Source: a virus. Taken from it: a DNA stretch of 16,916 nt. The notes below the pieces were generated by a model. That model saw only the letters and a program-made list of their open reading frames with translations, was not told where the DNA came from and did not search any database. The translations under genes and the position numbers were made by a program. Of the stretch, positions 1-16,864 are shown in pieces; position 1 is the first letter of the stretch, and each line of letters begins with the position of its first letter. Location of the stretch: UHGV virus genome UHGV-0071988; one strand, 5' to 3'.

Positions 1-465
1 TGTATGAGTCGACGGGGTAGCAACCCCCCCCCCCCACGGACCATACTTGATAACCAGTTCCGCTATGTTCTTTCGAACATATGCCATTTTCGCGCGCATA
101 TTGCCTGAGATCTGGCTTGCTGATACCTGAACAAAACCATGCTTATCTTCCAGACCGGACACCCTGCAACGCTCATCTCCGCTATCAAAATCCGTTCCGT
201 TATGCAGTTGGTTAAACCGTACTTCGTCGTATACCGTCGTTTCACAGGGCAACACATACACCGCAGCATGCGTTATTCCCAACTTACGTAGCGCCTTCGT
301 CCTTTGGTGTCCCGCCACCAGCAAATCGCCGCGCACTATCAATGGCTTCACAAGCCCCAGCTCCCTGACGCTTTCCGCCAGCCTCGCAAGATCATCCTCA
401 CCGATAAAACGCGGGTTATATTCCGCGCCGCGTAGGTGCGTTATGTCGTAATTGAGGTGAAGCAT
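1..465 (-). CDS. ParB-like nuclease domain protein, second tandem copy (3' end beyond window start)
   Basis: Minus-strand ORF with ATG at 465-463, open through position 1 (about 155 codons; absent from ORF track because it has no in-window stop). Translation MLHLNYDITHLRGAEYNPRFIGEDDLARLAESVRELGLVKPLIVRGDLLVAGHQRTKALRKLG fits the ParB N-terminal pattern. Its ATG overlaps the upstream stop (TGATG, 467-463). Confidence 0.55.
   Translation of the reverse strand, partial: MLHLNYDITHLRGAEYNPRFIGEDDLARLAESVRELGLVKPLIVRGDLLVAGHQRTKALRKLGITHAAVYVLPCETTVYDEVRFNQLHNGTDFDSGDERCRVSGLEDKHGFVQVSASQISGNMRAKMAYVRKNIAELVIKYGPWGGGVATPSTHT
24..35. repeat. Homopolymeric C12 tract (G12 on coding strand) inside the truncated ParB-like ORF
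   Basis: Twelve consecutive C at 24-35; encodes W-G-G-G-V in the minus-strand frame. Confidence 0.9.
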
Positions 466-1088
466 CAGCACACCTCCCCAGCCAGCAATGCGGATACAAA
501 TCCGATATAGCTGCCATTATCATCAACATAACGAGATACCGCGCAGTCAAAACGATCCGCTTCCTCATCCGTTGCCGGGATTTTATGGCTTCCAAATGAC
601 AGGTACTGAACTTTTACGCCTGATTTGGCCTCATCCTTCTCAAATGGGATATCCATACCCTCTGTGTCATCGCAGACCGCCGCACTCAATAAGTTATCCA
701 GTTCGCGCTGAGTAAAACCAATTGAGTCCAGAGCAAAATCATCGGCCGCAAGATCTGCAAGCTCCGCGCTTAACAACTCTTCATCCCAACCAGCATTCAA
801 CGGAATACGGTTGTCGGCCAGACGATATGCCTTCTTCTGATTCTCCGTTAGCCCTTCCAGAACAATGCAGGGAACATCATCCATCCCCAACTGAGTGGCC
901 GCAGCAATTCGACCATGACCAGCAATTACAACGTTGTTCTCGTCTATCAGGATCGGATTAGTCCATCCGTACTCCTGTATGCTGGCAACAATCTGATCTA
1001 CCTGCTCCACGGAGTGTGTGCGAGCGTTCTTTTCATAACCAATCAACACAGAAAGTGGTAAAGAAACCACATTAAGATGTTTTGTCAT
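465..1088 (-). CDS. ParB-like nuclease domain protein (207 aa)
   Basis: Complete ORF; segment ILIDENNVVIAGHGRIAAATQLGMDDVPCIVLEGLTENQKKAYRLADNRI matches the ParB N-terminal domain pattern (GxGR box). Acidic C-terminal half. Weak SD upstream. Confidence 0.75.
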   Translation of the reverse strand: MTKHLNVVSLPLSVLIGYEKNARTHSVEQVDQIVASIQEYGWTNPILIDENNVVIAGHGRIAAATQLGMDDVPCIVLEGLTENQKKAYRLADNRIPLNAGWDEELLSAELADLAADDFALDSIGFTQRELDNLLSAAVCDDTEGMDIPFEKDEAKSGVKVQYLSFGSHKIPATDEEADRFDCAVSRYVDDNGSYIGFVSALLAGEVC

Positions 1089-2808: not shown

Positions 2809-2815
2809 CGGGTTA

Positions 2816-2925
2816 TCTCCGGTTTAACCAGGGCGGGTATCGCTCGGTTTCGGGTATAACCTTAGGAAATTTTTTCCCACTTGTAAAGCGCTTTTTATAT
2901 AAATCTATAATTATATAATTCTATA
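2816..2925 (-). promoter_or_regulatory. Duplicated promoter/leader element, copy A (TTTACA-N17-TAAGGT plus upstream AT-rich palindromic site and shared 5' UTR)
   Basis: Near-identical (3-4 differences by eye) to 9538-9647. Minus-strand -35 TTTACA = 2882-2887, -10 TAAGGT = 2859-2864, 17-bp spacer. Leader ends in SD GGAGA before the 73-aa gene. Confidence 0.55.
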
Positions 2926-3803: not shown

Positions 3804-3879
3804 TGGTGGCCCCTACCGGATTTGAACCGATGACCGTGCGATTATGAGTCGCCTGCTCTAACCACTGAGCTAAGGGGCC
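3804..3879 (-). tRNA. tRNA with anticodon CAU, tRNA-Ile2 (lysidine-type)-like; 76 nt including encoded CCA
   Basis: Minus-strand sequence GGCCCCTTAGCTCAGTGGTTAGAGCAGGCGACTCATAATCGCACGGTCATCGGTTCAAATCCGGTAGGGGCCACCA folds as a cloverleaf (7-bp acceptor stem, D-arm GCTC/GAGC, anticodon loop CTCATAA, T-loop TTCAAAT). Acceptor stem and D-arm match E. coli ileX as recalled from memory; Met isotype not excluded. Confidence 0.85.
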
Positions 3880-4018
3880 ATATTTGATCTGTTTGTCTGG
3901 TGTGGCGCCGCGCACGAAAACCCCAGCCAATAAATTCAGGATTTTTGGGCGCGGCGGCATATCAGACAAACATGGTTGATGCGTGCGCTCATGAGAAAAG
4001 CGCATAGAATGTTGTAAC

Positions 4019-4052
4019 TATACATTTATATAATTATAGAAATATATATTAC
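4019..4052. repeat. AT-rich palindromic site C (member of the dispersed TATAGA/TTATATAA family)
   Basis: TACATTTATATAATTATAGAAATATATATT; shares TACATTTATATAA with site D and TTATATAATTATAGA modules with sites A, B, E, G. Confidence 0.5.
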
Positions 4053-4258: not shown

Positions 4259-4451
4259 TCCCCACCTCTTTTGTCACTTCTATACGCCGCTCCGCAGTGG
4301 CTTTTACGGCGGCTGCATTCTCATTAATGCGCTGCTTTTCAGCTTCATCTTCGGCCTTTTCTCGCCCTTTCATACGACCAAAACCAAACGCGCCGAATGC
4401 AACCAATATAATTGTGCCAATAAATGACAACACGGCCTTCAAACCAGTCAT
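4173..4451 (-). CDS. i-spanin (Rz-like), N-terminal TM helix plus charged periplasmic domain
   Basis: 92 aa; TM segment AVLSFIGTIILVAFGAFGFG then a K/E/R-rich helical region. ATG overlaps the endolysin stop (ATGA at 4451-4448). Confidence 0.55.
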   Translation of the reverse strand: MTGLKAVLSFIGTIILVAFGAFGFGRMKGREKAEDEAEKQRINENAAAVKATAERRIEVTKEVGNVQQSVNHMADDDVDRELRESWKRPGGG

Positions 4452-8398: not shown

Positions 8399-8435
8399 CT
8401 TATACATTTATATAAATATATAATTCTATATACGG
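8399..8435. repeat. AT-rich palindromic site D (promoter-proximal, upstream of the PapI-like gene)
   Basis: CTTATACATTTATATAAATATATAATTCTATATAC; shares TACATTTATATAA with site C and TATATAATTCTATA with site A. Confidence 0.5.
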
Positions 8436-8463: not shown

Positions 8464-9531
8464 TCAGGCTTTCAATAGCGATTCTTTCAGATATCGGGCA
8501 TCAGCCAGGGCGTTTGGAGTAATCTTGCGAACCCATGCATTACGGGTTGGACTCCACTTAAAGGCGCGTGATTTAAGCAGCGAACGAATGTTTGCCTCTG
8601 GTTTGCCAGGGAAATAAAACAGGATGCGGTTATCCTCTGGATCTACCTCCATAGAAAAGCCGTCGTATTCTTCGCGCTGTGATCCTGTTACAGACTTGAC
8701 CGATTCAAGCTCTTTAATACGGCTCTGTAGGCGTTTGATTTCGGCGTTATTGTTACTCAGTGAGTATGAAGGAAAGCCAATGTGCCCACAGAAATCTCCG
8801 GCGAGTAACTCTTTGGCTTCGCTTTCAGTAAACTCAAGGTCAATTAATGCGGAAAGCTGCTGTAATTGGTCTTTTTTGTATTTGCGAATAGCCTTATTTG
8901 CGGCCTTCATTTTGATGTGTGACTTCATGCAGCCTTGCAGCTTACGAAGCAACTTAAATAGCGCATCAGGATCATCAGACGAAACTCCATTACGGCCGAC
9001 ACCTGCGGCTTTGCTTTCGTAGTACGATGCTCTGCTTTCACACTCAACAAACGATTTTCTGAATAACGCATCAGCTTTAGACAAACGGCGGCGATGGCCT
9101 TTCGCGCTATAATGGTCAACTAAAATCGGCTGGCCTAACGGGATCACATCCAACAGTTCATGCGCTCGCTTATGCGCCACCGCACCTTCTTTTCTGGCTT
9201 TTTCTGCACGAGCAATATATCGGGCAAGACGCGCGTTCTGGCGTTCCTGATAGGTATTTACGTAATCATCTCCGCGCTGCTGCTGTTCAAGCCATGCTTT
9301 GCGCAGCTTTTCTGTTACGTCTACCAACTCCGCAGGGATACAACCTGTTTGGGATTCATAAGAGTGACCATCCTCATAAAGACGTCCATCGTCTTCAACA
9401 ACGAAAAAGGTTTCGTGCTCATCGCTTTTGACCATACGGCCATTAACATGACGTAATCTATAGCCAGTATCAGTGCTCAACAGGCTGTTAGGGTTGTTGA
9501 TCCAGTCAGAAATAATTACTTGTTTATTCAT
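8464..9531 (-). CDS. Conserved hypothetical protein (355 aa); possibly DUF3560-like
   Basis: Long ORF with SD GGAGA; first gene behind duplicated promoter copy B. C-terminal LFYFPGKPEANIRSLLKSRAFKWSPTRNAWVRK looks like a conserved motif; family assignment is from memory and uncertain. Confidence 0.75.
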   Translation of the reverse strand: MNKQVIISDWINNPNSLLSTDTGYRLRHVNGRMVKSDEHETFFVVEDDGRLYEDGHSYESQTGCIPAELVDVTEKLRKAWLEQQQRGDDYVNTYQERQNARLARYIARAEKARKEGAVAHKRAHELLDVIPLGQPILVDHYSAKGHRRRLSKADALFRKSFVECESRASYYESKAAGVGRNGVSSDDPDALFKLLRKLQGCMKSHIKMKAANKAIRKYKKDQLQQLSALIDLEFTESEAKELLAGDFCGHIGFPSYSLSNNNAEIKRLQSRIKELESVKSVTGSQREEYDGFSMEVDPEDNRILFYFPGKPEANIRSLLKSRAFKWSPTRNAWVRKITPNALADARYLKESLLKA

Positions 9532-9537
9532 CAGATT

Positions 9538-9647
9538 TCTCCGGTTTAACCAGGGCGGGTATCGCTCGGTTTCGGGTATAACCTTAGGAAAATTTTTCCC
9601 ACCTGTAAAGCACTTTTTATATAAATCTATAATTATATATTTATAGA
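9538..9647 (-). promoter_or_regulatory. Duplicated promoter/leader element, copy B (TTTACA-N17-TAAGGT), immediately downstream of the Q-like gene
   Basis: Near-identical to 2816-2925. Minus-strand -35 = 9604-9609, -10 = 9581-9586. Contains the near-perfect inverted repeat AAATCTATAA-ttatatat-TTATAGATTT (9623-9650). Confidence 0.55.
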
Positions 9648-9700
9648 TTTCCGATATTCCCGGTGCCTACAAATCACCAAAACAGCTCAAAATGACACTT

Positions 9701-13349: not shown

Positions 13350-13363
13350 CTGCAAGCGGGCTA

Positions 13364-13383
13364 ACGCCCGCTTACATGATTAT
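13364..13383 (+). terminator. GC-rich hairpin AAGCGGGC-taac-GCCCGCTT (possible terminator of the cI operon)
   Basis: Perfect 8-bp stem 15 nt after the stop of the 124-aa gene; the downstream U-run is poor. Confidence 0.4.
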
Positions 13384-13385
13384 AG

Positions 13386-13475
13386 ATTTATATAATTATA
13401 TAAAACGCTTTTCATCCGTAAAAAAGTTGGTTATGCTTACCTCGTTCTATAAATATAGATTTATAGAATTATATA
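13386..13475. promoter_or_regulatory. parA upstream region with two AT-rich palindromic sites (E: 13386-13414; F: 13445-13468)
   Basis: Site E is gaTTATAGATTTATATAATTATATAAAA. Site F is a perfect 10-bp inverted repeat TTCTATAAAT-atag-ATTTATAGAA. Both lie within 110 bp upstream of the ParA start. Confidence 0.55.
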
Positions 13476-13499
13476 ATCAAACACATGGAGTCTCGACAA

Positions 13500-14153
13500 A
13501 TGACTATCTCTGTAGGTATTTTCAACGGAAAAGGCGGCGTAACCAAATCAACAATTGCCCGTGCTTTAGCAGTTGCTTATGCAAAGGCTGGCTGGAATGT
13601 ATGCCTGATCGATATGGATGTGCTTAACGGAACGGTAACGCGTTGGGTACAACGCAGAATGGCCAACAATATCGAACCAGCAATCGCGGCGCAGCCGTGC
13701 GGCACACCATCACAAGTCCAGAAAATCATCGAATCAGAAGTATACGACCTGGTTATCGTCGATGGCGGTGCCTACGCATCTGAATCAGTACCGAAGCTCT
13801 CTGAATTTCTGGATATGGTTATTTTGCCAACCAGATTCTCTACCGATGACCTGGAAACCACCGTTAACACAGCTCACGGCATCGTTAAAAAGGGTGTACC
13901 AATCAAGAAAATTTGCATGGTGTTTTCCGGCGCGGCTGAAAACGAAGCTGACTATATTGAAGCCCAAGAGTACCTGGCTAATACGCCATACTTTGTTGTC
14001 GATAAGTACATTCCCCACAAGCCAGCTCTGAGCAAAGCTCAGGATAAGGGCTTAAGCCTCATTGAGTGCTCATACGTTGCGCCACGCAAAAAGGCAGACG
14101 ACGTTATTCAGGGGATTATCAACCAGATTGAGGCTCTGACTACTGCCGCGTAA
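13500..14153 (+). CDS. ParA-family partition ATPase, small type Ib (ParF-like)
   Basis: 217 aa from the second ATG (SD GGAG 9 nt upstream). Deviant Walker A GKGGVTKST near the N-terminus; LIDMD and VIVDGG motifs. Followed by a small RHH-like gene. Confidence 0.85.
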   Translation: MTISVGIFNGKGGVTKSTIARALAVAYAKAGWNVCLIDMDVLNGTVTRWVQRRMANNIEPAIAAQPCGTPSQVQKIIESEVYDLVIVDGGAYASESVPKLSEFLDMVILPTRFSTDDLETTVNTAHGIVKKGVPIKKICMVFSGAAENEADYIEAQEYLANTPYFVVDKYIPHKPALSKAQDKGLSLIECSYVAPRKKADDVIQGIINQIEALTTAA

Positions 14154-14186
14154 TATATAATTATAGTTTTATAGATTTATATAAGA
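14151..14186. repeat. AT-rich site G between parA and the RHH gene
   Basis: TAATATATAATTATAGTTTTATAGATTTATATAAGA; contains the core TATAGATTTATATAA (14170-14184) shared with sites A, B and E. Confidence 0.5.
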
Positions 14187-14196
14187 GGTGATACAC

Positions 14197-14445
14197 ATGG
14201 CCGCACCATCAAAACCACCAAAGAAGAACAGCAAAGGCGTACCGCCATCGATCGAACAACCGCAGGTTTTCGACCCGACTGAAACGCCAACCAGAACCAA
14301 ATCAGGTGGGGCACAAATGGCGTTTAACGTCGACCCTGAATTTAAACGCGAGTACAAAACGTTCGCCAGCTCAATGGATATGTCATTGAAAGAAGTGCTG
14401 ACAAAATCTTTTGAGTTACTCAAGGCTCAATACAACCAGAAGTAA
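14197..14445 (+). CDS. ParG-like ribbon-helix-helix partition/centromere-binding protein (82 aa)
   Basis: Start at ATG 14197 (SD AAGAGG 9 nt upstream). Lys/Pro-rich disordered N-terminal tail, then a beta-strand (MAFNVD) and two helices, as in ParG-type type Ib proteins. Confidence 0.55.
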   Translation: MAAPSKPPKKNSKGVPPSIEQPQVFDPTETPTRTKSGGAQMAFNVDPEFKREYKTFASSMDMSLKEVLTKSFELLKAQYNQK

Positions 14446-14507
14446 GAGAAGGTGACGGCCTCCAGCGCCAACTGTTGGCCGTCGCGACACAACAAGGGGA
14501 ATTTGTT

Positions 14508-14657
14508 ATGTCCGAGCAACAATATACACGGTTACTGAAAACTCGTCTAACCGACCTCAAACGGCTGCAAGCTGGTCGCTTATTTGCCCTGCTATCCACC
14601 AGGCCAGAATGGGTACGTGAAGCAGTTCTGAAAGGCTTAATGCGCTCCAGCGTTTAA
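14508..14657 (+). CDS. Possible small protein (49 aa)
   Basis: Internal ATG of track ORF 14475-14657 with SD AGGGGA 8 nt upstream: MSEQQYTRLLKTRLTDLKRL... Ends 10 nt before a strong hairpin. Confidence 0.35.
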   Translation: MSEQQYTRLLKTRLTDLKRLQAGRLFALLSTRPEWVREAVLKGLMRSSV

Positions 14658-14667
14658 ATTCAACCAT

Positions 14668-14689
14668 AAAAAAGGCCCCCGAAGGGGCC
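14668..14689 (-). terminator. Intrinsic terminator, minus-strand oriented (GGCCCC-cgaa-GGGGCC plus U-run)
   Basis: Hairpin at 14674-14689 with A6 on the plus strand at 14668-14673, giving a U-run after the stem for a minus-strand transcript. No U-run in the plus direction. Confidence 0.55.
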
Positions 14690-15204
14690 TAATCGCTACT
14701 TGCTGCTAATGTTTATCGTCACATTCAGAGCGTTATCAGTAATCTTCCAACCCTCTCCATGTGGCGTAAACAAAGCTCCAGTAACAACGATCAAAATACA
14801 TACGTATTTCCTCATTGTATTGGCCCTCGCAGGCCGTTTCACGGCATCTCCACCGACGAAAATGACGCGAGAGCAAGCACACCGCTTGTGCTTGCGTGTA
14901 CGGCAAGTGGATGATCCTTTCCTTAAAGTCGGTGCCCGGGTGCGAATCGGCGAAAAGGCCCCAAGCCATATTACACGTCCTCGCCTTCATAATGAAGGAA
15001 TAACAAATGCTTTTATTACATGTAATTACATCCGAAGAAGTTAAAAAACTTCATTCTGCATGAACTAAGGAACTAAATTTCTTTATATGAATAGTGGACT
15101 ATTCACCTCAGTTGAGTAAGAATAGATACGCCGCTTGTGCTTGCGTGGTTGTTTATACAACGACGTTATGCTGAAAGGACCGCGAATCCGATCAGCACGA
15201 AAGA

Positions 15205-15231
15205 ACCGTCCTCAAAAGGACGGTTTTTTTG
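15205..15231 (+). terminator. Intrinsic terminator, plus-strand oriented (ACCGTCC-tcaaaa-GGACGGT plus T7)
   Basis: Stem 15205-15211 / 15218-15224 followed by TTTTTTT (15224-15230). The stop codon of the minus-strand regulator gene (15212-15214) lies in its loop. Confidence 0.6.
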
Positions 15232-15784
15232 TTTCTTCACTCATTAAAAACCGTCCAAGACCTGTTGATGACTCCAGATAATCTCGATTATCCATATCAG
15301 CACCGTTATCGACCCAATGTCTATATGCTTCATTGCAACAATACATTACAGCAGTTGGAGTAACAGGGAAGCCGCCCCCAAATGAGAATCCCATTGAGCT
15401 AATGCTAATTCTTTCGAATGGCCTATTTCTCAATGCTTCAAACCCCTTACTGTTGAAGTAACTCAGCATCAGAGGCAAAAGGTTATCCTCGTCCTGATCG
15501 ATTGTTCCCGGGAAAAAGTAGTAACCACAGCGATTAAATTCGGGAATCAGTTTTTCTACCAACAACATGAAATTCATTGGGCTAATATTAAGGGCAGAGC
15601 AAGCACCAAAAAGAGCATCAACCGTTAATACAGACTGCCCGTTCTCTATCTTTGTCCATGCGTTTGGTGTTTTTCCGGCAGCTTGAGCCAGTACTCCTTG
15701 ATGCACACCTCTTTCAAGCCTAAGTTCTTTTATGATCATTAGGTGAATTGTTGAAAAACATGAATTTTTTGATGTTTCAGTCAT
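15212..15784 (-). CDS. XRE-family HTH transcriptional regulator with uncharacterised C-terminal domain (190 aa), AT-rich
   Basis: Strong SD GAGGAGG 6 nt upstream. N-terminal IIKELRLERGVHQGVLAQAAGKTPNAWTKIENGQSVLTVDALFGACSALNISP is a Cro/C1-type HTH. Divergent from the antirepressor-like operon. Confidence 0.7.
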   Translation of the reverse strand: MTETSKNSCFSTIHLMIIKELRLERGVHQGVLAQAAGKTPNAWTKIENGQSVLTVDALFGACSALNISPMNFMLLVEKLIPEFNRCGYYFFPGTIDQDEDNLLPLMLSYFNSKGFEALRNRPFERISISSMGFSFGGGFPVTPTAVMYCCNEAYRHWVDNGADMDNRDYLESSTGLGRFLMSEETKKPSF

Positions 15785-15854
15785 TTTTTACCTCCTCTGC
15801 ATTAAATTCACTACCAATTTCCAATCTCAAAAGAAACCACAATCAATACCATCT

Positions 15855-15981
15855 AGTTCCCTACATTCACAGCATACCCAAAAAACTGGATATGAAGCAA
15901 ATTTTTTCGCAAATAAATCACAACAAGTTCCTTATACTCATATATAAGTTCCCTACATTCATATAATGTTCCCAACAATCC
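15855..15981. repeat. Four direct repeats (consensus AGTTCCCTACATTCA), three of them phased at 20-21 bp
   Basis: Identical 15-mers at 15855-15869 and 15947-15961; variants at 15926-15940 (12/15) and 15967-15981 (about 10/15). Located between the XRE regulator gene and the rightward operon. Confidence 0.6.
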
Positions 15982-16358
15982 AGTGTCAAACAAATTTGAT
16001 TGGTCAAATCATGCGCTTAATGAGCAGAAAATTCCGTTTTTCAAACCCACGCTATGTGGTTGTCTCTGTTAAAATCTCGCCGTATTGACATGAATGCGCC
16101 ATTGGTGGACACTTTCCGAGCCGTAGCAAAATCTACGGCCGGGATTGGAACCCCGTAGACACAATGGCGCATACCGCGTTAGCGGTTTTTTTATGCGTAA
16201 AGCACTGCTACACCCAAATTATGGTGGGGCGTGCGGGGGAGTCGTAAGACTCGCCGGTTCGTCATTGTGTCCGGTAGTTCCAACCCTGCACGTCTCACCA
16301 CCCAATGATTGGAACCTGACGGTGGTGAGTATCCTTAACCTTTAAGGGAATCATCACA

Positions 16359-16550
16359 ATGACAAACCTACCCCATGACTATTACGTCAACCTCGTAAAG
16401 ATCCTTCTCAAGAAAGCCTCATACGCCGATAAATTCCGCCTGGCTGAAATAATCGAGCGCGAAGCTATGCGCATCGCCAGCAACGATAACGCTGTTTCTG
16501 ACGCAAAAATCTCCCTCGTAACCAAAGTAGTTATGGGAGGTGCAAAATGA
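16359..16550 (+). CDS. Hypothetical small protein (63 aa)
   Basis: ORF with SD AAGGGAA; stop overlaps the start of the next gene (ATGA). Confidence 0.5.
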   Translation: MTNLPHDYYVNLVKILLKKASYADKFRLAEIIEREAMRIASNDNAVSDAKISLVTKVVMGGAK

Positions 16551-16864
16551 AAACGCTTCCGACCGTTAACACCCTACAGCCTATCCTGCATAACCAAATC
16601 CCTGTCATTACTACCGAGTTACTGGCACAGCTTTACGGCGTATCTCCTGTACGCATTCGACAAAATCATCATGAGAATAAGGAACGCTTCATTGAAGGTA
16701 AGCACTACTTCAAAATTGAAGGTAACGAACTTCGAGAGTTAAAGCACAAAGTGACTCAAGATAATGATGTGAAGAACAAAAACTCTTTAAGAGATTCAGT
16801 TAATGACGCCCCCTCTAAAAGAGAGAGCGTCGAGCACAGAGTAGTTTTAAACTACTCTGTTTGA
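16547..16864 (+). CDS. ORF6N/KilA-N-like domain protein (antirepressor-like N-terminal domain, 105 aa)
   Basis: SD GGGAGG 6 nt upstream. Segment ITTELLAQLYGVSPVRIRQNHHENKERFIEGKHYFKIEGNELRELK matches my recollection of the ORF6N/Bro-N-type domain found at the N-terminus of phage antirepressors. Confidence 0.55.
   Translation: MKTLPTVNTLQPILHNQIPVITTELLAQLYGVSPVRIRQNHHENKERFIEGKHYFKIEGNELRELKHKVTQDNDVKNKNSLRDSVNDAPSKRESVEHRVVLNYSV

What the first reader, a model, noticed from the sequence alone, without database searches (positions are those of the whole stretch)
13500..14445. Type Ib-like partition module (small ParA plus RHH protein) next to the lambdoid immunity region
A 217-aa deviant-Walker-A ATPase followed by an 82-aa protein with a disordered basic tail and RHH-like core is the ParF/ParG plasmid-partition architecture, flanked by centromere-like repeats. 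No integrase is visible in the window. This argues the element may be maintained as an extrachromosomal phage-plasmid, or that the Par proteins have been co-opted for regulation (see the AT-rich site finding).
Basis: partly seen in the sequence, partly recalled or inferred. Interest (0 to 1): 0.5.

Follow-up and report, generated by a model that had tools for sequence, protein, structure and literature searches.

The report
Phage-plasmid partition cassette with dispersed binding sites
This is a genuine small ParA ATPase plus ribbon-helix-helix partner of the plasmid-partition type, carried by a ~48-kb virus that lives as a plasmid in E. coli and its relatives, and the partner's short repeated DNA sites lie at four other places in the window as well as around the cassette.

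Summary

- **Genes.** 13500-14153 encodes a 217-aa ParA-type ATPase with a deviant Walker A motif (KGGVTKS). [quoted passage not shown]
- **Repeats.** Three arrays, each of four 8-bp boxes (TTATAKAW), lie around the cassette. Two bracket the predicted parA promoter. One sits between parA and the RHH gene.
- **Replicon.** Near-identical cassettes sit on ~47-50-kb circular plasmid records that carry an IncFII-family RepA, a complete myovirus gene set and no integrase. That covers 71 of 5,426 complete E. coli genomes, including ATCC 25922. They also occur in three virion-derived Yersinia phage genomes. The element is therefore a phage-plasmid.
- **Family.** The RHH protein belongs to a large family with no functional annotation. 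All nine members examined sit directly downstream of a ParA-type gene. Eight-bp arrays of a different, replicon-specific sequence bracket the promoter in the five relatives with a diverged RHH partner that were read there.
- **New angle.** Four further arrays in this window, and more in two relatives, are dispersed through phage genes and always use the replicon's own box sequence. This recalls omega of pSM19035 and the dispersed centromeres of N15.

Mechanistically it is a new member of type Ib partition. No DNA binding or plasmid stabilisation has been tested.

The parts
13351..13376 (+). GC-rich hairpin after the upstream 124-aa gene; probable terminator that insulates the par operon
   Evidence: Inverted repeat I16, 11-nt arms, 91% complementary. 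Read from the sequence. Its function is inferred.
13372..13403 (+). Array A: four 8-bp boxes (TTACATGA TTATAGAT TTATATAA TTATATAA) ending 5 bp upstream of the predicted -35
   Evidence: Kept in relatives L011 and L012, where the promoter spacer has diverged.
13409..13437 (+). Predicted par promoter: -35 TTTTCA (13409-13414), 17-bp spacer, -10 TATGCT (13432-13437)
   Evidence: Read from the sequence and from comparison with L011 and L012 (-10 TATCAT at the matching place). The consensus scanner did not call it. Prediction only.
13445..13476 (+). Array B: four 8-bp boxes (TTCTATAA ATATAGAT TTATAGAA TTATATAA) covering about +1 to +32 of the predicted transcript; presumed operator
   Evidence: The same position is occupied in relatives L003, L005, L010 and L014.
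13500..14153 (+). parA: 217-aa type Ib ParA/MinD-superfamily ATPase with a deviant Walker A motif and no N-terminal DNA-binding domain
14153..14184 (+). Array C: four 8-bp boxes (ATATATAA TTATAGTT TTATAGAT TTATATAA) between the parA stop and the Shine-Dalgarno sequence (GAGG) of the RHH gene
   Evidence: An equivalent intergenic array is present in L003, L005, L011, L012 and L014.
14197..14445 (+). Gene for the 82-aa centromere-binding-protein candidate: basic, proline-rich disordered tail (1-38) plus an RHH domain (39-82)
14454..14483 (+). Hairpin without a T-run just after the RHH gene; comparable hairpins follow the RHH gene in L005 and in the Vibrio phage
   Evidence: Inverted repeat I19. 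Sequences. Function unknown.
14508..14657 (+). 49-aa ORF, a possible third gene of the operon; small ORFs occupy the same position in relatives, but homology is weak
   Evidence: PHROG 22022, E 7e-4. Alignment shows only 21-29% identity. ORFs of 45-55 aa in L003, L005 and L013.
9617..9648 (-). Dispersed array directly upstream of a promoter-leader cassette (TTTACA-17-TAAGGT) that drives the DUF3560 gene (9531-8464)
8400..8431 (-). Dispersed array between the DUF3560 stop codon and the ribosome-binding site of the next gene (8386-8105)
4018..4049 (-). Dispersed array immediately after the stop codon of gene 4258-4049, upstream of the tRNA-Met and MT-A70 methylase segment
2895..2926 (-). Dispersed array directly upstream of a second copy of the same promoter-leader cassette, driving the 73-aa ORF (2808-2587) and downstream genes

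Best explanation
The cassette is the active-partition (type Ib ParABS-like) system of a low-copy circular phage-plasmid of about 48 kb that replicates with an IncFII-family RepA.

Proposed mechanism, all steps inferred:
- Dimers of the 82-aa protein insert their RHH beta-ribbon into the major groove of each 8-bp box, one dimer per box. They coat each four-box array cooperatively.
- Arrays A and B sandwich the par promoter, so the same complexes repress parA and the RHH gene (autoregulation) and also serve as the centromere.
- The conserved basic N-terminal tail (MA..KPPKK..KG.PP) contacts nucleoid-bound ParA-ATP and stimulates its ATPase. Plasmid copies then move apart along the ParA gradient.
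- The four further arrays in the window, and a fifth elsewhere on the replicon, are extra loading sites for the same protein. They add centromere strength, and because several abut promoters or ribosome-binding sites they probably tie expression of a few phage-plasmid genes to the level of the RHH protein.

Shown here: the gene identities, the predicted fold, the repeat architecture, its conservation and co-variation in relatives, and the plasmid state of related replicons.

Inferred: DNA binding, autoregulation, ATPase stimulation and partition itself.
For: 1. ParA identity is established. ParF of TP228 is the closest solved partition ATPase (4dzz, E 3e-4).
3. Conserved gene pair. All nine family members examined lie directly downstream of a ParA-type gene. 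Eight of those genes encode 213-216 aa. The ninth was called as a 119-aa ParA C-terminal fragment.
4. Conserved site architecture with co-varying sequence. Arrays of 8-bp period bracket the promoter, and usually fill the parA-RHH gap, in L003, L005, L010, L013 and L014. Each replicon has its own box: GAWWTAAA, CGAWWTAA, GCACGAAA, GTTATTCC.
5. Closer relatives keep the TTATAKAW arrays while the promoter spacer between them has diverged.
6. Dispersed arrays use only the replicon's own box (cross-test).
7. Plasmid state and replication gene.
8. Precedent. ParG binds one dimer per tetramer box, with boxes spaced by 4 bp (an 8-bp period), at an operator plus centromere upstream of parFG (PMC3130281). 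Omega needs at least four contiguous repeats for full ParA activation, and its sites overlap promoters (PMC9499535). Every array here has exactly four boxes.
Against: - There is no experimental evidence of binding, repression or stabilisation.
- The window protein itself hits no Pfam, NCBIfam or PDB sequence. The fold rests on a monomer AlphaFold model of a domain that is an obligate dimer.
- ParA scores 78.6 bits against NCBIfam ParA_partition, below its equivalog cut-off of 180.
- The par promoter is my own reading and the consensus scan did not call it.
- The window-type boxes are 91-94% A+T and contain TATAAT-like strings, so they could also act as promoter elements or as targets of nucleoid proteins.
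- Two relatives (L009, L010) carry a tyrosine recombinase annotated as an integrase.
- The tool counts one 'chromosome' place among the E. coli hits, which I could not identify.
Confidence: 0.78

Rival explanations
1. The pair is mainly a regulatory device. The RHH protein is a global repressor of the omega type, or a transcriptional roadblock, that sets expression of par, the DUF3560 gene, the methylase segment and other phage-plasmid genes. Partition is secondary or absent. This overlaps with the best explanation rather than excluding it.
For: - Three array-plus-promoter-plus-leader cassettes with near-identical sequence drive unrelated genes. Two are in the window and one is at L002 14078-14180.
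- Other arrays sit exactly between a stop codon and the next ribosome-binding site.
- In the Vibrio phage-plasmid, arrays lie in front of late structural genes.
- Omega of pSM19035 is a precedent for an RHH partition protein that doubles as a regulator (PMC9499535).
Against: - The partner is a full-length ParA ATPase with intact motifs, kept next to the RHH gene in 9 of 9 cases. A pure repressor would not need it.
- The replicon is a low-copy-type plasmid with no other partition system recognised.
Confidence: 0.4
2. The repeats are not sites for the 82-aa protein. They are intrinsic AT-rich promoter or UP elements, curved DNA bound by H-NS or IHF, iterons for RepA, or operators of the CI-like repressor.
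For: - The window-type boxes are 91-94% A+T and contain TATAAT-like strings.
- The scanner calls minus-strand promoter-like sites inside them.
- The CI-like gene lies only about 500 bp away.
Against: - Relatives have the same 8-bp-period architecture with boxes richer in G+C that cannot be -10 elements (GCACGAAA, GTTATTCC).
- The arrays travel with the ParA-RHH pair in loci where no CI-like or replication-initiator gene was called among the neighbouring genes (L003, L014).
- Box sequence changes together with the RHH protein.
- No array lies next to repA in L002.
Confidence: 0.08
3. The element is an integrated prophage, and the ParA-RHH pair is a remnant or has a role unrelated to maintenance, such as a toxin-antitoxin-like pair or cargo positioning.
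For: - Some family members lie on very large contigs (L007, 500 kb) in non-phage surroundings.
- Eleven of 52 relatives weakly hit Pfam Antitox_RHH.
- One 'chromosome' place is counted among the E. coli hits.
Against: - 71 of 72 places in complete E. coli genomes are on plasmids. Every listed record is 31-94 kb, and all 61 PLSDB records with the cassette are plasmids.
- repA is present and no integrase is found.
- The downstream 49-aa ORF matches no toxin family.
Confidence: 0.04

Closest known systems
ParF-ParG-parH/OF of plasmid TP228 (type Ib)
   Same: - A small ParA without an N-terminal DNA-binding domain (ParF is the best solved partition match).
- A partner of about 80 aa with a flexible N-terminal tail and a C-terminal RHH domain.
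- Sites with an 8-bp period: in TP228, tetramer boxes with 4-bp AT-rich spacers, one dimer per box, in direct and inverted orientation, upstream of the operon, serving as both operator and centromere (PMC3130281).
   Different: - There is no sequence-level membership of Pfam ParG (1 of 52 relatives at E 0.018).
- The box sequence is TTATAKAW, not ACTC.
- Arrays come as discrete sets of four rather than one run of 20 boxes.
- An extra array lies between parA and the RHH gene.
- Further arrays are dispersed over the replicon.
- The tail is Lys/Pro-rich. No equivalent of the ParG arginine finger has been identified.
Delta-omega-parS of pSM19035 (Inc18)
   Same: - Short non-palindromic repeats in direct and inverted orientation.
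- Several separate sites that overlap promoters of different genes, so that partition and global regulation are combined.
- At least four contiguous repeats are needed for full ParA activation (PMC9499535), and every array here has four boxes.
   Different: - Repeats are 7 bp there against 8 bp here.
- There are 7-10 repeats per site there against 4 here.
- Delta is larger than this 217-aa ParA (my own knowledge).
- The host is a Firmicute plasmid, not a phage-plasmid.
- Some arrays here lie inside operons, directly before ribosome-binding sites.
SopA-SopB with four dispersed IR centromere sites of phage-plasmid N15 (type Ia)
   Same: A temperate phage kept as a plasmid. Its centromere consists of several separate sites (IR1-4; PMC7205306). 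From my own knowledge (Grigoriev and Lobocka 2001; Ravin, Rech and Lane 2008) these sites lie among phage genes and influence phage gene expression.
   Different: N15 uses a type Ia system: a large ParA and an HTH-type ParB binding palindromic sites. It is a linear replicon and a siphovirus. The proteins are unrelated to the RHH partner here.
ParA-ParB-parC1/parC2 (par2) of pB171 (type Ib)
   Same: A small ParA plus a small centromere-binding protein, with arrays of short repeats at more than one site flanking the operon, the upstream one being also the operator (my own knowledge; not checked here).
   Different: In pB171 the second site lies downstream of parB, not between the two genes. No dispersal over the replicon is known.

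Membership tests
ParA/MinD superfamily, small (type Ib) partition ATPase | Deviant Walker A motif xKGGxxK[ST] with the signature lysine, plus Walker A' and Walker B motifs | tested here: met
   KGGVTKS at 11-17, LIDMD at 36-40, LVIVDG at 84-89. Pfam CbiA 48 bits against a cut-off of 25.4.
ParA/MinD superfamily, small (type Ib) partition ATPase | Length of about 200-230 aa with no N-terminal HTH domain (distinguishes type Ib from type Ia) | tested here: met
   217 aa. The Walker A motif starts at residue 11. The NCBIfam ParA_partition profile (203 positions) aligns over positions 2-200.
NCBIfam NF041546 ParA_partition (equivalog) | Score at or above the curated cut-off of 180 bits | tested here: not met
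   78.6 bits, E 4e-22. It is a relative of the family, not an equivalog.
Type Ib partition system | A small centromere-binding protein with an RHH fold, encoded directly downstream of parA | tested here: met
   Gene order. RHH fold from the model and fold searches. The pair is conserved in 9 of 9 relatives.
Type Ib partition system | A cis-acting centromere of iterated short repeats next to the operon, bound by the partner protein | tested here: inconclusive
   The repeats are present, non-random and co-vary with the protein. Binding cannot be tested with these tools.
Type Ib partition system | The partner's N-terminal tail stimulates the ParA ATPase, and the cassette stabilises a plasmid | not testable with these tools
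   Only a conserved basic N-terminal motif, MA..KPPKK..KG.PP, is seen.
Pfam ParG (PF09274) | A significant match to the family profile | tested here: not met
   The window protein gives no hit. One of 52 relatives hits at E 0.018. A profile search of PDB finds 1p94 at E 0.62. hhalign gives 53% probability.
Ribbon-helix-helix superfamily | A beta-strand, helix, helix domain of about 45 aa that matches solved RHH domains | tested here: met
   [not shown]
Phage-plasmid | A plasmid replication initiator and a complete phage structural and lysis gene set on one extrachromosomal replicon, which is also found as virions | tested here: met
   Met for near-identical complete relatives, not within the window itself. 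pEA32_4 has repA, a toxin-antitoxin pair, myovirus genes and no integrase. There are 61 PLSDB plasmids and 71 E. coli genomes with the cassette. Yersinia phages vB_YpM_39/41/44 carry IncFII RepA.

The most novel reading that the evidence does not exclude
In this family of phage-plasmids the RHH partition protein acts as a genome-wide organiser. Arrays of three to four 8-bp boxes, matched to each replicon's own RHH protein, are planted at promoters and directly in front of ribosome-binding sites across early, maintenance and (in the Vibrio relative) late structural operons. One small protein would then couple plasmid segregation to silencing or timing of phage genes in the plasmid-prophage state. 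That would be a type Ib counterpart of what N15 does with SopB, conserved across Enterobacteriaceae and Vibrio elements.
Probability: 0.35. Interest if true: 0.65.

Novelty: new member of a known kind. Interest (0 to 1): 0.45.

Why it matters
- **An uncharacterised phage-plasmid group.** The cassette explains how a widespread group is inherited: about 1.3% of complete E. coli genomes, including the quality-control strain ATCC 25922.
- **A function for an unannotated family.** It assigns a testable role to a family that is labelled only 'hypothetical protein' wherever a source names it and has no precomputed Pfam domain. The family has 497 hits at E 0.001 or better.
- **A compact recognition system.** Each array has four 8-bp boxes, and natural variants pair different RHH beta-strands (QMAFNV, PLNFKV, PMNFLV) with different boxes (TTATAKAW, CGAAA-type, GAAWTAAA). 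This could be used to study the RHH recognition code or to build orthogonal partition and repressor parts.
- **Dispersed arrays.** If they are bound in vivo, they would show that coupling of partition to phage gene control is not peculiar to N15.

Tried and rejected
- Sequence searches of the 82-aa protein against PDB, Pfam and NCBIfam found nothing, whether as a single sequence or as a shallow profile.
- The full-length AlphaFold model built on a shallow alignment (pLDDT 67) gave meaningless Foldseek matches. Trimming to the C-terminal 46 aa and using a 114-sequence alignment solved this.
I used the look-up of encoding contigs instead.
- Literature searches for the Yersinia phages, for accession numbers and for ATCC 25922 with 'phage-plasmid' found no study of this element. 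The Ravin and Lane N15 paper (PMC94163) is not held.
- I tested whether L001:18786-19928 is an integrase. It is an ORF6N plus Rha antirepressor.
- The unannotated gaps of L002 hold the antirepressor and a tail-fibre ORF, not a recombinase.
- The conserved leader after the array-promoter cassettes does not fold better than shuffled sequence (z -1.2).
- The 49-aa ORF downstream shows only weak similarity to the small ORFs at the same position in relatives, so I do not claim it as a conserved third component.
- The one 'chromosome' place reported among the E. coli hits could not be located in either listing.
Full report
**Observation**

The two ORFs are as described. parA runs from ATG 13500 to the stop at 14153 (217 aa). 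The small ORF runs from ATG 14197 to the stop at 14445 (82 aa).

ParA carries the deviant Walker A motif KGGVTKS (residues 11-17), LIDMD (36-40) and LVIVDG (84-89). Its database matches are:
- Pfam CbiA at 48 bits against a cut-off of 25.4, plus MipZ and AAA_31.
- NCBIfam ParA_partition over the whole 203-position profile, E 4e-22 and 78.6 bits. This is below the 180-bit equivalog cut-off.
- PHROG 164, 'ParA-like partition protein', E 4e-39.
- ParF of TP228 (4dzz), E 3e-4, as the closest solved partition ATPase.

With the Walker A motif at residue 11 there is no room for an N-terminal DNA-binding domain. It is therefore of the small, type Ib kind.

**The 82-aa protein**

By sequence alone it matches nothing in Pfam, NCBIfam or PDB. 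PHROGs places it only in a family of unknown function. The word-indexed search found only close relatives of at least 79% identity.

An exhaustive HMMER scan of 1.8 billion representative proteins found 62 hits. Apart from a few giant low-complexity proteins, these form a family of 73-97-aa proteins at 33-48% identity. Their alignment shows two conserved parts:
- an N-terminal motif, MA..KPPKK..KG.PP;
- a C-terminal block, LNFKVxxEFxRExKxFAxxxDxSMxELLxxxFELYK.

Of 52 members, 18 hit Pfam RHH_10 (best E 9e-6), 11 hit Antitox_RHH, 4 hit 56B_RHH and 1 hits ParG. The family profile finds ParG (1p94) in PDB only at E 0.62, but in register. hhalign against the ParG sequence gives 53% probability over the whole RHH domain. 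I supplied that ParG sequence from memory. It agrees with the 1p94 fragment shown.

A full-length AlphaFold model on a shallow alignment was poor (pLDDT 67) and showed residues 1-40 as disordered. Its Foldseek search was uninformative. I then modelled the C-terminal 46 aa with a 114-sequence alignment. That model has pLDDT 88 and consists of an extended segment followed by helices at 11-23 and 28-45.
- Almost all of its best Foldseek matches are RHH domains. They include the PutA DNA-binding domain (probability 0.96, TM 0.77), StnY, CdbA, AmrZ, CopG, ParD and ParG (TM 0.74).

I conclude that the protein has a disordered basic tail and an RHH domain. It is not a sequence-level member of the ParG family.

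**The repeats**

The flanking repeats have an 8-bp period and the consensus TTATAKAW. A 16-mer of two boxes with up to two mismatches matches 36 times in the window, against 0.13 expected. The matches resolve into seven arrays, each of exactly four boxes.

Three arrays are at the cassette:
- Array A (13372-13403) ends 5 bp upstream of a predicted -35.
- Array B (13445-13476) starts just after a predicted -10.
- Array C (14153-14184) fills the gap between the parA stop and the Shine-Dalgarno sequence of the RHH gene.

The promoter is TTTTCA-17-TATGCT at 13409-13437. This is my reading of the sequence, and the consensus scanner did not call it. Comparison with two relatives supports it, because they have TATCAT at the matching place. 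In those relatives (RHH protein 79% and 90% identical) the arrays are kept while the spacer between them has diverged. That argues for selection acting on the arrays.

**The replicon**

The 1.4-kb cassette is widely distributed:
- It is 98.9% identical to three Yersinia myophage genomes of 49 kb.
- It is 97.5-99.9% identical to 58 of the 61 PLSDB plasmids that carry it, most of them about 47-52 kb. All 61 are predicted non-mobilizable, and 57 are from Escherichia.
- It is present in 71 of 5,426 complete E. coli genomes. The tool counts 71 places on plasmids and one on a 'chromosome'. Every record listed in either output is 31-94 kb, and I could not find the chromosomal one.
- E. coli ATCC 25922 carries it on its 48,488-bp plasmid.

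Plasmid pEA32_4 (49.5 kb, 99.9% identical over the cassette), read in full, carries repA, a RelE/ParE toxin-antitoxin pair, a complete myovirus head, tail and lysis set, and no recombinase. Its unannotated gaps hold an antirepressor and a tail-fibre ORF. The RepA of the phage record belongs to the IncFII RepA family (E 1e-43). No larger ORF in the window has an integrase domain.

The element is therefore a phage-plasmid. I found no paper on it.

**Relatives**

All nine family members whose surroundings I read sit directly downstream of a ParA-type gene. In eight that gene encodes 213-216 aa. In the ninth it was called as a 119-aa ORF that reads as the C-terminal part of a ParA. Several also have a CI-like repressor a few genes upstream, as here.

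In the five relatives with a diverged RHH partner that I read there, the par promoter is bracketed by arrays of 8-bp period. Each replicon has its own box:

| Replicon | Box |
|---|---|
| L005/L009 | CGAWWTAA |
| L003 and L014 | GAWWTAAA-type |
| Vibrio phage-plasmid PE002A (L010) | GCACGAAA |
| L013 | GTTATTCC |

L003, L005, L011, L012 and L014 also have an array between parA and the RHH gene.

The beta-strand of the RHH domain differs in parallel with the box:
- QMAFNV goes with the TATA-type boxes.
- PLNFKV and PLNFRV go with CGAAA-containing boxes.
- PMNFLV goes with GAAWTAAA.

This pairing of strand and box is suggestive. It is an inference only.

**Dispersed arrays**

The window has four further arrays, all intergenic on the minus-strand early operon.
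- Arrays 9617-9648 and 2895-2926 each abut a near-identical promoter-leader cassette of about 95 bp (TTTACA-17-TAAGGT). These cassettes drive the DUF3560 gene and a 73-aa ORF.
- A third copy of the array plus cassette lies outside the window, at L002 14078-14180.
- Arrays 8400-8431 and 4018-4049 sit between a stop codon and the next gene.

The complete plasmid has eight arrays, all within the early and maintenance part of the genome.

The relatives show the same thing with their own boxes. L009 has one dispersed array in its early operon. The Vibrio phage-plasmid has six, several of them directly in front of late structural genes.

A cross-test shows that each replicon contains only its own box type. 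The one exception is the overlap between the related L003 and L009 box patterns. This makes it likely that the protein binding the par arrays also binds the dispersed ones.

**Mechanism**

The best-supported reading is a type Ib partition system. RHH dimers coat the four-box arrays. Arrays A and B act both as operator and as centromere. The basic tail activates ParA.

Two studied systems are the guides:
- In TP228, one ParG dimer binds each tetramer box. Boxes are spaced by 4 bp, in direct or inverted orientation. Eight boxes form the operator and twelve form the centromere, all upstream of parFG (PMC3130281).
- In pSM19035, omega binds heptads that overlap three promoters. At least four contiguous repeats are needed for full ParA activation (PMC9499535).

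The exact four-box size of every array here fits the second point. The dispersed sites recall omega's several promoter sites and the four IR centromeres of N15 (PMC7205306). That the N15 sites lie among phage genes and affect late expression is my own recollection of Grigoriev and Lobocka 2001 and of Ravin, Rech and Lane 2008.

Binding, repression, ATPase stimulation and stabilisation are all inferred.

**Rivals**

- A mainly regulatory role is compatible with the evidence and probably holds in addition to partition.
- Sites for another factor, or intrinsic AT-rich elements, are unlikely. Relatives have boxes richer in G+C, and the arrays travel with the pair in loci where no CI-like or replication-initiator gene was called nearby.
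- An integrated prophage is contradicted by the plasmid records and by the lack of an integrase. However, two relatives carry a tyrosine recombinase alongside RepA and ParA. That enzyme could be a dimer resolvase.

**Verdict**

The cassette is a new, uncharacterised member of a known kind of system. The dispersed arrays that co-vary with the RHH protein are the part worth an experiment.

Noticed in passing
window 14668-14963 (-): There is a full-length Rfam ryfA RNA match (133 bits against a gathering score of 80) immediately downstream of the par operon, convergent with it. It ends at the strong hairpin plus T-run at 14690-14673. In enterobacterial chromosomes ryfA is, from my own knowledge, linked to a small toxic peptide (TimP/TimR), so this may be a type I toxin-antitoxin-like stabiliser next to par.
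   Followed up: no
window 16120-16305 (+) and 16547-16864 (+): Rfam isrK (70 bits) and C4 antisense RNA (78 bits) lie in tandem upstream of an ORF6N-domain gene. This is a P1 immI-like antirepressor control module. In the window the ORF6N gene stops after 105 aa, whereas the relatives encode a 380-aa ORF6N plus Rha protein.
   Followed up: partly
window 9531-9616 (-), 2809-2894 (-); L002 14078-14151 (-): There are three near-identical copies of a promoter-plus-leader cassette of about 85-95 bp (GCTTTACA..TAAGGTTATACCCGAAACCGAGCGATACCCGCCCTGGTTAAACCGGAGA). Each lies directly after a four-box array and drives a different gene. The leader does not fold better than shuffled sequence.
   Followed up: partly
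window 3804-3879 (-): A tRNA-Met (CAT) gene lies between a dispersed array and the MT-A70 methyltransferase gene.
   Followed up: no
window 465-1088 (-); L001 880-2876: ParB_N/Srx-domain proteins, one fused to a methyltransferase in relatives, are encoded far from parA. They score just below the Pfam cut-off and are probably phage DNA-modification or nuclease-type proteins, not the partner of this ParA.
   Followed up: partly
window 15212-15784 (-): A second HTH_3 repressor-like protein (190 aa) is encoded divergently from the isrK/C4 region. The intergenic region 15800-16100 differs from the Yersinia phage by insertions and deletions, which looks like an immunity-type swap.
   Followed up: no
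window 14454-14483; L005 about 4265-4300; L010 about 38250-38295 (-): A GC-rich hairpin without a T-run follows the RHH gene in the window and in two distant relatives. Its function is unknown.
   Followed up: no
L009 1195-2433 (-); L010 7187-8470 (+): Two phage-plasmid relatives that have the ParA-RHH pair (and, in L010, RepA) also encode a tyrosine recombinase annotated as an integrase. It could be a dimer resolvase or a true integrase. The window-type element has none.
   Followed up: no
NZ_CP009073.1 and other ATCC 25922 records: The antibiotic-susceptibility quality-control strain E. coli ATCC 25922 (Seattle 1946) carries this phage-plasmid as its 48,488-bp plasmid. One assembly (CP032086, 94,204 bp) contains two copies, which looks like a dimer or an assembly artefact.
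   Followed up: partly
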